64,000 bases of DNA from a virus (taxonomy: Duplodnaviria > Heunggongvirae > Uroviricota > Caudoviricetes), in the IMG/VR virus record IMGVR_UViG_651053023_000001, positions 39,131 to 103,130 of that record; one strand, written 5' to 3'. The position numbers were made by a program. The number at the start of each line of letters is the position of its first letter. The stretch's first letter is position 1. Shown here one piece after another: positions 3,001-5,500 of this stretch.

Positions 3001-5500
3001 CTTCAGCTACTTTTGACAGTTTTTTTAATAAACCTGATTCAGCATTTAGACGCTCATCATCCTCTTTGCGCCTGGCCTTTTCAGCACGTTCAGCACGGGC
3101 ATCTTCCGCTGCGGCCTTACTCCCTGACTTTCCAATAAAACGACCACGCGCATCGCGTTGGTTTTGGCTTTTTTGCGCACCGCCTTTTTGATCGAACATT
3201 TTGCGAGCGTGTTCGGCTGCTTCGGTCCGTTGTGCCTTTATATCCTCTGGTATAGCCTTCCTGCGTCGTTTTTTACCCTTTGGTGTAGTTGATTTGGCCT
3301 GCTGTTCCTGTTGAGCAATGCCCTCCTGAACTACACGAGAAACGTCCCCTAAATTAAGCCGTTTCATTGCATCAACAATAGGGTCTACTGATGGCGCATT
3401 GGCCACAAAGTCTGGCCGGGAATTTTCGATTGTTCGATTTAATGCCGACACACTGCGAGATACTGGGTCAACCGTTGCAACGCGTTCCCCTTTCAAATCA
3501 CGATCGAGTTTGACCGTTTCTAACCGCTGTGCTTTAACATCCTCTGTTATTGCCTCTCTTCGTCTATTTGGGGGATTGTGCGCTGTTGGTGCAGCCTGCT
3601 GTTCACGGTTAGTGACTTTGTCCTCCCGTATACGAGAAACGTCCCCTAAATTAAGCCGTTTCATTGCGTCAACAATAGAGTCCACTGATGGCGCATTGGT
3701 CACAAAGTCAGGACGTGAATTTTCGATTGTGCGATTTAATGCCGACACACTGCGAGAGACAGGATCAACAGTTGCAACTCGTTCCCCTTTCAAATCTTCA
3801 ACAGCTTCCCGAATACCTGCAAGCTCTTCCAGCTCTTTCGCGCTGGCGGTTTCAACTGTCCTTATAACATCGTCAATATTGGCGTTTTTTCTTTCCATGA
3901 TCTTATCGCCTACCGTTTCGGTTTAAGTTTTTCTTCCAGTTTCTCCAACAGGAAAAACGCATAGGATTCAGTAAGCCTTTCAGCGTCCTGAATCGGTATA
4001 CCCCCATACAAAACCAGGTTGGACACTAAGGTCTGATAGCTTTTCAATCCCCACCTGTGGAATGAAGTCGGTAGCCCGAAAGGGCACCCACAGACGGGTA
4101 TATGCACCCTCTGTGGACTCCTTTTTATCCTGATTTGGGCATTTATGCGGCGGGAGACGAAGACGCATTTCACCTTTATCGATGTAGCACGGTAAACCAT
4201 GTTCGAGCTTTTCATGAGCCAGTCGGATGTGTGCCGCCAGCTTCATAAATTCAGTATCAATGGCCATCCGTTTAATCGTTTCATAACGACGCTCAGCCTG
4301 ATCTTCACGAGTACCGCTAACATCGTTATAAAGCTCACACTGATAAGCGAATTCCCAAAAACGCAAATCAACGATCGCTTCTTTGAATTCCGCGTCGTCT
4401 TCAGGTGGCAATGCTGCACGGCGCATCTCCAGCATTTCCATTGCCCAACCATCAAGCGGCACGATACGCCATTGATAAGGTACTCCCTCTACAGACACCT
4501 CAATATCGTCAATGAAAGGTTCCACTTCCAGGACCTGGATATCTTCAGCCAGAGCATTCATATCGCAATCGTAATAATGCTCTTTACCGCAATGTTTACA
4601 GGTGTAGGTGAATGTCTCGACCGGTGTTTCACGGGAGCCGGTAAATATCCACCATAACGCGGTAATCCGGTCCTGCGCCGTCCATGTCAGGGGATCATGT
4701 TTCGCGGGTTCAGCAAGCAAGGCTTTTAAATACGCCGTTGTCTGTTGTTCTTGTTCCTCCGGTGTTATCGAGTTGAAACGCATCGCATCAGCAATATTTG
4801 GCTGACGGAACTGGATCAATTCAGTTGGCCGCGATGGTAGCGGGAAAAGAGGTAAAAGCATCCTTGCTCCTTAATTCAAAGAGAAAAGCTAAAGCCCAGA
4901 AGGGAAGCCAAAGAACTTGAGGATTGGTTAAACGTGCTGTGCAATGCGAAGGTCATTGGGAATGACTTAAATTCAGTAACCTGATCTCGCGCATAGGTGA
5001 CATCGCCGGTAGTGACCGGGAATACCGTCATCTCATTTTCCAGTTTGGTTAAGCCGGAAGACAGCAACCGATAAATACGCACATTGAGCAAATATTTAGA
5101 CGGTATATTCCCGGTACCGTCCGGATTGATCACCCGACTTTTTGCCGTCTTAAACCAGTCCAAAACGAGGCCATCAACGGTATCCCTGACCATCATTGTT
5201 ATCTGCCCAGGCGAACGCTCCGTTGGTTGAAGGATATTCCCTCCGCCGATTTTAATCGTTTCATATTCGATGCTGTAATCGTGGTAGGTAATGTCTTTGG
5301 CAAAGAAGTCTGCCCCCTCCAGTCCATCAACTTCGACAGAGAACTGCCATCCTTGCGCGAACAGCATTTTGTTCATGATGATTGACGTCAGCTTACCAAC
5401 TTCCCGCTCACCAACGCCGGAGCCAAATAATGTCGTCGTTAATGCCGAAGATACATAAGACTTTACTGAAGCAACATTAAGCCCCATATCAGCCCCCTCA

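What the first reader, a model, noticed from the sequence alone, without database searches (positions are those of the whole stretch)
3285..3878. In-frame tandem duplication of a 297-bp unit (99 codons) inside sit
Two adjacent copies with a highly conserved 56-aa core (DLKGERVATVDPVSRSVSALNRTIENSRPDFV.NAPSVD.IVDAMKRLNLGDVSR) and diverged flanks. The ORF is 1231 aa; my recollection is that P1 Sit is about 1140 aa, so this may be a one-unit expansion. Repeat copy number in injection or tape-measure proteins can change virion dimensions or be a recombination artefact.
Basis: partly seen in the sequence, partly recalled or inferred. Interest (0 to 1): 0.45.

Follow-up and report, generated by a model that had tools for sequence, protein, structure and literature searches.

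The report
Copy-variable repeat in P1 tape measure
The tail tape-measure gene (sit) of this P1-like phage-plasmid carries two in-frame copies of a 99-codon module that lab phage P1 has only once. This is a real, old and common natural variant (1, 2 or 3 copies in different isolates) that may set tail length in steps, which has not been measured.

Summary
The ORF at 203-3898 (-) is a 1231-aa P1 Sit, the tape-measure protein with a lytic transglycosylase domain. It holds two adjacent 297-nt units: copy 1 at 3500-3796 and copy 2 at 3203-3499.

- **Core and tail:** the 56-codon cores are 92% identical in DNA and 54/56 identical in protein. The 43-codon tails are about 60% identical in DNA.
- **Other phages:** P1, P7, SJ46 and three outgroup lineages have one unit.
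- **Not an artefact:** the copies differ too much to be an assembly error, and the allele recurs in many independent assemblies.
- **Frequency:** the same allele is in phage phi456, in 137 of 479 sit-bearing PLSDB plasmids, and in 197 of 469 sit-bearing complete E. coli genomes.
- **Three copies:** these alleles also exist, including an intact 1340-aa ORF in pEC2_5. Their middle units are hybrids with two different breakpoints, so unequal recombination in the core is recurrent.
- **One-copy alleles:** all have a copy-1-type head and a copy-2-type 3' part, so P1's own allele may be a deletion derivative.

Predicted effect (inferred, not tested): about 15 nm, or about 4 tube rings, of tail per unit. 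This is an ordinary kind of variation in tape-measure proteins, but I found no description of it for P1. It gives a natural test of whether Sit is the ruler.

The parts
203..3898 (-). sit: 1231-aa tape-measure / structural injection transglycosylase of a P1-like phage-plasmid
   Evidence: The ORF is. It is 99.7% identical in DNA to phi456 Sit and 91.6% to P1 sit. It matches phrog_2533 with E=0. The annotated synteny pmgB-sit-pmgA-bplA is seen in P1, phi456, SJ46 and P7.
3797..3898 (-). Conserved N-terminal cap, aa 1-34 (MERKNANIDDVIRTVETASAKELEELAGIREAVE), present once in all alleles
   Evidence: It is identical in P1, P7, SJ46 and phi456 and recognisably conserved in the Cronobacter and Salmonella outgroups.
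3629..3796 (-). Copy 1 core, aa 35-90
   Evidence: 92% DNA identity to the copy 2 core, dS 0.32, dN 0.017.
3500..3628 (-). Copy 1 tail (T1), aa 91-133 (REDKVTNREQQAAPTAHNPPNRRREAITEDVKAQRLETVKLDR). This is the only sequence absent from one-copy alleles and serves as the marker for alleles with two or more copies.
   Evidence: It is about 60% identical in DNA to T2. It is very uniform among two-copy alleles (pi 0.007). A 161-nt probe across T1 and the junction hits 137 plasmids and 197 E. coli genomes.
3332..3499 (-). Copy 2 core, aa 134-189
3203..3331 (-). Copy 2 tail (T2), aa 190-232, orthologous to the tail of P1's single unit
   Evidence: for the alignment; the T2 consensus and the one-copy-tail consensus differ by 9%, against 39% for T1.
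1025..1354 (-). SLT lytic transglycosylase domain, aa 849-958
   Evidence: Pfam PF01464, E 4.8e-27.
3980..4861 (-). pmgB homologue (293 aa), essential tail morphogenesis gene proposed to be the tape-measure chaperone
   Evidence: The ORF is. It has the same size and position as the annotated pmgB in P1, phi456 and SJ46. The upstream flank is no more than 3.4% diverged across 84 loci. Its role was proposed in PMC9024508.

Best explanation
SHOWN. The gene is sit, the tape-measure protein of a P1-like (Punavirus) phage-plasmid. Directly behind a conserved 34-aa N-terminal cap it carries two tandem in-frame copies of a 99-codon module. Each module has a 56-codon core under strong purifying selection and a 43-codon fast-evolving tail rich in charged residues and proline. 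The duplication is old. It now exists in the natural P1-like population as a copy-number polymorphism with 1, 2 or 3 units. The roughly 92%-identical 168-nt cores act as substrates for unequal homologous recombination and gene conversion. This recombination has produced three-copy alleles at least twice, with hybrid middle units that have different breakpoints. It also links the one-copy and two-copy alleles through a hybrid pattern.

INFERRED. The module lies in the predicted helical part of the tape measure, between the N-terminal cap and the rest of the protein, and tail tubes polymerise along the tape measure. Each extra unit should therefore lengthen the tail by about 99 x 0.145-0.15 nm, roughly 15 nm. 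That is about 4 tube/sheath rings on top of P1's 52/53. The population would then contain discrete tail-length classes. The one-copy allele of laboratory P1 is most simply a deletion product of a two-copy ancestor, with the crossover between unit nt 65 and 80. This polarity is not settled.
For: - **Identity:**. Sit was found in the P1 virion by mass spectrometry and assigned as tape measure (PMC9024508). It is essential by CRISPRi (PMC10695390).
- **Repeat:**
- **One unit elsewhere:** P1, P7 and SJ46, Cronobacter phage JK004 and two Salmonella plasmid lineages.
- **Frequency of two-copy alleles:** 137 of 479 plasmids and 197 of 469 E. coli genomes. phi456 carries the two-copy allele and forms plaques.
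- **Three-copy alleles:** an intact 1340-aa ORF in pEC2_5 and a frameshifted type in pXH987 and pEC12-3.
- **Breakpoints:** the middle units switch from copy-2 type to copy-1 type between nt 96 and 113 in one lineage and after nt 117 in the other.
- **One-copy pattern:** all 62 one-copy alleles carry copy-1-type bases at nt 32-38, and all but one also at nt 65. From nt 80 on they are mostly copy-2 type, with some copy-1-type bases at nt 86 or 113, and they have the T2 tail. In the predominant pattern, the chance of the 6+6 sites being arranged this way is 1/924. Two alleles have other switch points.
- **Gene conversion:** converted variants of copy 1 exist (L019, L040).
- **Flanks:** copy number is not tied to flanking haplotype.
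- **Selection:** core dN/dS is about 0.05; the tail has dS about 1 and dN 0.47.
- **Secondary structure:** the AF2 model of aa 1-420 is mostly helices separated by short breaks (low confidence).
- **Ruler precedent:** in TP901-1, tail length is linear with tape-measure length at 0.145 nm per residue, and only about 127 terminal residues do not contribute (PMC5099701).
- **No compensation:** two-copy Sit (1231 aa) shows no compensating deletion relative to one-copy alleles of 1130-1140 aa.
Against: - No tail-length measurement exists for any two- or three-copy P1-like phage.
- Sit is unresolved in the P1 cryo-EM maps (PMC12810830).
- The simple ruler arithmetic fits P1 poorly. 1140 aa x 0.15 nm is 171 nm, yet 52 tube rings imply roughly 200 nm or more, so part of Sit cannot be a plain straight helix.
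- The module sits very near the N-terminus, a region that in other tape measures contacts the terminator or connector rather than measuring.
- The core is far more conserved than a passive spacer needs to be, which hints at a specific binding function.
- The AF2 model has a mean pLDDT of only 55.7.
- Polarity: all three outgroups have one unit. The hybrid pattern could also come from one-copy alleles homogenising the outer halves of a two-copy allele.
- T1 and the copy 2 core show very low diversity (pi 0.005-0.007 against about 0.06 in T2). This fits a young or narrowly distributed inner block.
Confidence: 0.6

Rival explanations
1. The module is a specific interaction site, not a spacer. It might bind the proposed chaperone PmgB, the tail terminator or connector, or the leading DNA end. 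Extra copies would then add binding sites, or be tolerated as neutral, without changing tail length.
For: The core is under very strong purifying selection in both copies (dN/dS about 0.05). The motif AMK.LNLG is kept even in the 49%-identical outgroups. The module is adjacent to the extreme N-terminus, which in TP901-1 and SPP1 is thought to contact the terminator or connector. The tails carry strongly basic stretches (KGKKRRRK, NRRRE). The plain ruler arithmetic does not fit P1.
Against: There is no Pfam, PDB or PHROG functional match for the region. The predicted structure is extended helices, not a fold. In every tape measure tested experimentally, internal in-frame insertions or deletions change tail length (and established work on lambda gpH and T4 gp29). 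One, two and three copies are all found as intact ORFs, which would be odd for a stoichiometric site.
Confidence: 0.3
2. The second copy is an assembly or sequencing artefact, or a very recent duplication private to this genome.
For: Tandem repeats of about 300 nt can be mis-assembled from short reads. Some public records of this allele are of poor quality (673R5 and 813R1 carry many frameshifts).
Against: The copies differ at 14 of 168 core positions and about 40% of tail positions. An artefactual or recent duplicate would be identical. The same two-copy allele, at 97-100% identity, occurs in 137 plasmid records, 197 complete E. coli genomes and 18 IMG/VR contigs from unrelated projects. The ORF is intact.
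Confidence: 0.01
3. One copy is the continuous ancestral state, and the two-copy allele is the derived form. On this view P1 is not a deletion derivative. The hybrid pattern arises because abundant one-copy alleles keep overwriting the outer halves of two-copy alleles by homologous recombination, leaving only the inner block (copy 1 3' core, T1, copy 2 head) private.
For: All three outgroup lineages have one unit. The inner block has about ten times lower diversity than the outer parts. Flanks are freely shared between the copy-number classes. Gene-conversion variants are seen.
Against: It needs the copy-1-private and copy-2-private sites to fall without overlap on either side of one point, nt 65-80. 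A single unequal crossover explains this pattern directly. One-copy alleles with other switch points (L030, L079) look like independent deletions. Tail dS of about 1 puts the duplication well before the diversity of present one-copy alleles, which differ by 12.6% at most.
Confidence: 0.4

Closest known systems
Sit of reference phage P1 (YP_006507.1, 1140 aa), also P7 Sit (1130 aa) and SJ46 (1137 aa)
   Same: It is the same gene in the same place (pmgB-sit-pmgA-bplA), with 91-95% DNA identity. It shares the N-terminal cap, the SLT domain and the C-terminus.
   Different: The reference phages have one 99-aa unit where the window has two. There are further small indels: +8 aa KLATKGLG, and -3, -3 and -10 aa relative to P1.
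Sit of Escherichia phage phi456 (WNL49372.1, OR339795) and the two-copy alleles of IncY P1-like plasmids such as CP142546.1
   Same: They share the 1231-aa length and the two-unit structure, at 99.7-100% DNA identity. phi456 is a plaque-forming phage.
   Different: There is essentially no difference, so the window's allele is already in public databases. The phi456 paper does not mention sit or the phage tail at all.
Repeat-containing tape-measure proteins of siphophages, whose length sets tail length (lambda gpH, TP901-1 TMP, mycobacteriophage TMPs; PMC5099701, PMC3271669)
   Same: They too have in-frame repeated units in a long helical protein. Unit gain and loss is seen as the way tail length evolves. 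Experimental deletions and duplications change tail length at about 0.15 nm per residue.
   Different: Those units are short (11-18 aa, marked by aromatic residues) and numerous. Here the unit is 99 aa, present in 1-3 copies, sits right behind the N-terminus, and belongs to a contractile-tail phage. Tail-length dependence has not been shown for Sit.
T4 gp29 tape measure (myophage)
   Same: It is a tape measure of a contractile tail, and engineered internal deletions and duplications alter tail length (established knowledge, not re-checked here).
   Different: I know of no sequence similarity (not checked here). In T4 the lysozyme is on gp5, not on the tape measure. No natural copy-number polymorphism is known to me.

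Membership tests
P1 Sit family (phrog_2533; Punavirus tape-measure/transglycosylase) | Full-length sequence homology to P1 Sit | tested here: met
   megablast gives 91.6% identity to P1 sit over 91% of the gene. phrog_2533 matches with E=0 and 2444 bits. The single-unit profile is matched in two stretches, and residues 134-1231 align to profile positions 35-1130.
P1 Sit family (phrog_2533; Punavirus tape-measure/transglycosylase) | C-terminal-third SLT lytic transglycosylase domain | tested here: met
   PF01464 at aa 849-958, E 4.8e-27, 94.3 bits against a cutoff of 21.3.
P1 Sit family (phrog_2533; Punavirus tape-measure/transglycosylase) | Position between pmgB and pmgA/bplA in the tail-baseplate operon | tested here: met
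   Annotated neighbours in P1, phi456, SJ46 and P7 are. The flanks align at no more than 3.4% divergence.
P1 Sit family (phrog_2533; Punavirus tape-measure/transglycosylase) | Virion component and essential for plaque formation | not testable with these tools
   Shown for P1 itself by LC-MS/MS (PMC9024508) and by CRISPRi (PMC10695390). phi456, which has the two-copy allele, forms plaques.
Tape-measure proteins acting as tail-length rulers | Long, predominantly alpha-helical, extended protein | tested here: inconclusive
   In the AF2 single-sequence model of aa 1-420, helices cover most residues, but mean pLDDT is 55.7 and pTM 0.19. [quoted passage not shown]
Tape-measure proteins acting as tail-length rulers | Tail length changes in proportion to protein length | not testable with these tools
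   No EM measurements exist for two- or three-copy phages. Sit is unresolved in P1 cryo-EM.
Tape-measure proteins acting as tail-length rulers | Dedicated chaperone encoded immediately upstream | not tested
   PmgB is only hypothesised to be the chaperone. No frameshift signal was searched for here.
Tandem-repeat copy-number polymorphism driven by unequal homologous recombination | Different copy numbers among otherwise near-identical alleles | tested here: met
   Alleles with 1, 2 and 3 units were found. Flanks are identical across the classes (minimum distance 0.000).
Tandem-repeat copy-number polymorphism driven by unequal homologous recombination | Hybrid units at the recombination joint, with independent breakpoints | tested here: met
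   The middle units of three-copy alleles are a copy-2 core plus a T1 tail, with the switch at nt 96-113 in pEC2_5 and after nt 117 in pXH987 and pEC12-3. One-copy alleles are copy-1-head/copy-2-tail hybrids.
Tandem-repeat copy-number polymorphism driven by unequal homologous recombination | Unit length a multiple of three, so the frame is kept | tested here: met
   The spacing is 297 nt. Intact ORFs of 1140, 1231 and 1340 aa were found.

The most novel reading that the evidence does not exclude
Natural P1-like phage-plasmids fall into discrete tail-length classes of roughly +15 nm (about 4 rings) per unit, set by a recombination-driven 1/2/3-copy switch in the tape measure. The laboratory P1 tail (52 tube and 53 sheath rings) would then be the short, deletion-derived form. 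Copy number could tune infection of hosts with different envelope or capsule thickness. It would also settle by a natural experiment the old debate over whether Sit is P1's ruler.
Probability: 0.4. Interest if true: 0.55.

Novelty: new variant of a known kind. Interest (0 to 1): 0.38.

Why it matters
P1 is a workhorse of E. coli genetics, and P1-like phage-plasmids are widespread carriers of resistance genes. About one in twelve complete E. coli genomes in RefSeq carries sit (469 of 5426).

The identity of P1's tail ruler was debated until recently, and Sit is invisible in the cryo-EM maps. A common natural series of 1140-, 1231- and 1340-aa Sit alleles that differ by clean 99-aa steps offers a direct and cheap test of the ruler model in a contractile-tail phage. 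The test is to count sheath rings.

There are practical consequences too. The reference P1 allele is not representative of 29-42% of natural elements. RefSeq annotation also often truncates the two-copy protein at M234, so protein-based comparisons miss the polymorphism.

If copy number has no effect on tail length, the finding remains an ordinary repeat polymorphism of modest interest.

Tried and rejected
- **Tandem Repeats Finder** does not report the repeat because the tails are too diverged.
- **The search for homologous proteins** with the N-terminal 330 aa returned only close, mostly partial E. coli proteins and no distant relatives.
- **The genome-contig scan** used only patterns from the extreme N-terminus and gave 4 loci, none informative. 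Outgroups had to come from tblastn against phages and plasmids.
- **Function of the N-terminal third:** there is no Pfam, PHROG-function or PDB match.
- **The AF2 single-sequence model** is low confidence and was used only for secondary structure. No fold search was attempted.
- **Literature:** I found no tail-length figures for phi456, and 673R5/813R1 appear only in a genomic survey of phage-like plasmids that I did not open. The survey of P1-like plasmids I checked does not mention sit. The P1 cryo-EM paper gives ring counts but no helical rise.
- **Origin by crossover between two alleles:** I rejected a simple unequal crossover between a divergent single-copy allele and a P1-type allele, because one-copy alleles match copy 1 at the head, not copy 2.
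- **Microhomology origin:** I did not pursue an origin at DLKG/DQKGG, because the unit would then be 306 nt, not 297.
- **First three-copy allele found:** pXH987 turned out to carry a downstream frameshift. I therefore searched for an intact one and found it in pEC2_5.
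Full report
**What is at the coordinates**

The window's minus strand carries a 1231-aa ORF at 203..3898. It is the sit gene of a P1-like phage-plasmid.
- It is 99.7% identical in DNA to sit of Escherichia phage phi456 and 91.6% identical to sit of phage P1.
- It matches the Sit family profile phrog_2533 with E=0.
- Its only Pfam domain is an SLT lytic transglycosylase at aa 849-958.
- The neighbours are the usual pmgB (upstream) and pmgA/bplA (downstream).
- Elsewhere the window has the P1 hallmarks: C4 antisense RNA, a trio of tRNAs and iteron arrays.

**The repeat is real**

- The repeat finder reports one strong direct repeat, 3288-3499 versus 3585-3796: 212 nt, 84% identical, spaced exactly 297 nt apart.
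- Aligned as whole units, the two copies are 79% identical over 296 nt (E 2.5e-69) and 72% identical over 99 aa (E 7e-49).
- Each unit has a 56-codon core with 92% DNA identity and 54/56 identical residues.
- Each unit also has a 43-codon tail with about 60% DNA identity, in which only a loose pattern survives (..EQQA....RRR.AI.ED.KAQR.E).
- Set by alignment to one-copy genes, copy 1 (N-terminal) is window 3500-3796 and copy 2 is 3203-3499.
- Tandem Repeats Finder misses the repeat.

**Comparison with reference genes**

- P1 Sit is 1140 aa, P7 Sit 1130 aa and SJ46 Sit 1137 aa, and each has one unit.
- The window and phi456 (both 1231 aa) have two. The alignment shows a clean 99-residue gap right after the conserved first 34 residues.
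- The poor-quality record vB_EcoM-673R5 spans a two-copy-sized sit region (99.0% identity over the full query), but frameshifts prevented a unit count.
- Other small indels explain why the net difference from P1 is 91 aa rather than 99.
- More distant relatives also have a single unit. These are Cronobacter phage JK004 (49% aa identity) and two Salmonella plasmid lineages.

**Not an artefact and not private to this genome**

- The two copies differ at 14 of 168 core positions and about 40% of tail positions. An assembler cannot have created one copy from the other.
- A 161-nt probe covering the copy-1 tail and the junction occurs in 137 of the 479 PLSDB plasmids that carry sit.
- The same probe occurs in 197 of the 469 complete RefSeq E. 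coli genomes that carry sit.
- It is also in 18 IMG/VR contigs.
- The two-copy allele is therefore 29-42% of natural alleles.
- phi456, which has it, is released spontaneously and forms plaques (PMC10967188).

**Three-copy alleles and recombination**

Two kinds of three-copy allele were found.
- pEC2_5 (NZ_CP041960.1) has an intact 1340-aa sit with units at aa 35, 134 and 233. Three further records match its three-copy junction equally well.
- pXH987-OQX and pEC12-3 have three units plus a downstream frameshift, and PGAP flags the pEC12-3 copy as a pseudogene. pXH989 and pEC15 match the same junction. The poor-quality phage record 813R1 also has three units.

I used the 14 core positions that differ between the window's two copies as markers.
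- The middle unit of every three-copy allele is a copy-2-type core joined to a copy-1-type tail. This is exactly the product of an unequal crossover between misaligned two-copy genes.
- The switch lies between nt 96 and 113 in pEC2_5 and after nt 117 in the pXH987 type. The event therefore happened at least twice.
- Some two-copy alleles also show patches of the other copy's bases, which indicates gene conversion (L019, L040).

**The one-copy alleles are hybrids in the same sense**

- All 62 one-copy alleles examined, P1, P7 and SJ46 included, carry copy-1-type bases at nt 32-38, and all but L030 also at nt 65. From nt 80 on they are mostly copy-2 type, with some copy-1-type bases at nt 86 or 113, and they have the T2 tail.
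- In the predominant pattern, the chance that six sites of one kind all lie 5' of six of the other is 1/924. Independent divergence of two copies from a P1-like single unit is therefore rejected.
- The simplest reading is that the P1-type gene is the deletion product of a two-copy ancestor, with the crossover at nt 66-79.
- Two one-copy alleles with other switch points (L030, L079) look like further deletions.

I could not exclude a rival account.
- On this account one copy is ancestral, which is what the three outgroups suggest.
- Frequent recombination with abundant one-copy alleles would then keep overwriting the outer halves of two-copy genes, leaving only the inner block private.
- The very low diversity of that inner block fits this view (pi 0.005-0.007 against about 0.06 in T2 and in one-copy tails). 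So does the free sharing of flanks between the classes.

Either way the duplication itself is old. Core dS is 0.32 and tail dS about 1, whereas present alleles differ by 12.6% at most.

**Selection**

- The core has dN 0.017 and dS 0.32 (ratio about 0.05), so both copies are kept functional.
- The tail has dN 0.47. It is also the least conserved part in the outgroups.
- Across the whole family the motif AMK.LNLG and the first 34 residues are conserved.

**What the module probably does**

- For P1, Sit was detected in virions and assigned as the tape measure. The N-terminal two thirds are predicted helical, and PmgB was proposed as its chaperone (PMC9024508).
- sit is essential (PMC10695390).
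- Cryo-EM of P1 gives 53 sheath rings and 52 tube rings but could not resolve Sit (PMC12810830).
- My AF2 model of aa 1-420 is low confidence (pLDDT 55.7). It shows each unit as helices with a break of about 13 residues at the proline-rich part of the tail.
- In TP901-1, tail length falls linearly with tape-measure deletions at 0.145 nm per residue, and only about 127 terminal residues do not count (PMC5099701).

Applying that figure gives about 14-15 nm per unit. At the roughly 4-nm ring rise typical of contractile tails (my knowledge, not given in the P1 paper), that is about 4 rings. This is inference, and there are caveats:
- 1140 aa x 0.15 nm is only 171 nm, which is short of 52 rings.
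- The module lies next to the N-terminus, which may contact the terminator.
- The core's strong conservation suggests a specific partner.

I therefore give the tail-length effect about 0.4-0.45. I give the structural and evolutionary description about 0.85-0.9.

**Comparison with what is known**

- Repeats in tape measures, and their gain and loss as the route to new tail lengths, are well known for siphophages (PMC5099701, PMC3271669; a 2026 survey, PMC13585406).
- What differs here is the unit (99 aa, 1-3 copies, right behind the N-terminal cap), the host (a contractile-tail phage) and the fact that it is a standing polymorphism in a model phage's natural population.
- In the papers I could search, I found no description of it. 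The phi456 paper does not mention sit or the tail.
- The allele itself is already in GenBank. What is new is the interpretation, not the sequence.

**Verdict**

- "Expansion relative to P1" is descriptively right. It is better described as an old 1/2/3-copy polymorphism of the tape measure, interconverted by unequal recombination, with P1 possibly the deleted form.
- Interest is moderate (0.38). A specialist would not be astonished, but it offers a clean natural test of the ruler model for P1.

Noticed in passing
L096 (NZ_CP020522.1 19188-21148), and rows: RefSeq/PGAP annotates this two-copy sit gene from M234 (WP_409364745.1, 1013 aa). This drops the N-terminal cap and both repeat units, although the ORF is intact from MERKNANI. 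Eight of the 10 rows listed have no feature under the junction, so protein-level surveys may miss the polymorphism.
   Followed up: partly
L097 432-2972 (-) (pXH987-OQX Sit); the equivalent in the window is about aa 703-720 of Sit, roughly window 1739-1792: There is a second copy-number-variable module in Sit. The 17-aa unit EANAKEITPELKAPVNS is present three times in tandem in pXH987-OQX but once in P1 and, as KADAKEVTPELKTPAKES, once in the window.
   Followed up: no
window, about aa 470-500 and aa 870-880 of Sit: Other small indels relative to P1 are an 8-aa insertion KLATKGLG (shared with SJ46, and itself repeat-like: KLATKGLGKLGVKALAKG) and a 10-aa deletion inside the SLT domain (shared with P7 and SJ46). 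Together with changing nearest relatives along the gene, these show that sit is a recombination mosaic.
   Followed up: no
window 43629-43928 and 47195-47494; 43957-44073 and 47523-47639; 46187-47161 (-): Two direct copies of an IS3-family element lie 3566 nt apart, sharing an identical repeat reported as 300 nt. Each has an ALIL frameshift pseudoknot and a 296-aa transposase ORF. They bracket an IS21-family transposase remnant. No NCBIfam family was found for the two neighbouring ORFs scanned (45842-46261 and 48421-48978).
   Followed up: partly
window 11232-11406 (+): There is an Rfam sok antitoxin RNA match (109.7 bits), implying a hok/sok-type post-segregational killing locus on this phage-plasmid.
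   Followed up: no
window 7568-7620 and 7689-7774 (+); 29152-29305 and 30737-30812 (+); 19798-19878 and 20906-21095: Standard P1 landmarks are present: C4 antisense RNA with its a1/b1 targets, three tRNA genes (Asn-GTT, Thr-TGT and a CAT-anticodon tRNA), and iteron-like tandem repeats of the plasmid replicon.
   Followed up: no
window 3399-3926 (+): A 175-aa TTG-initiated ORF runs antisense across the repeat region of sit. It is probably a chance ORF, and its conservation was not examined.
   Followed up: no
PMC9024508 versus PMC12810830: The 2022 P1 proteome paper uses a 120-nm tail in its tape-measure arithmetic. The 2026 cryo-EM paper reports 52 tube and 53 sheath rings, which implies roughly 200 nm or more. 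The residues-per-nm argument for Sit as the ruler needs redoing.
   Followed up: no
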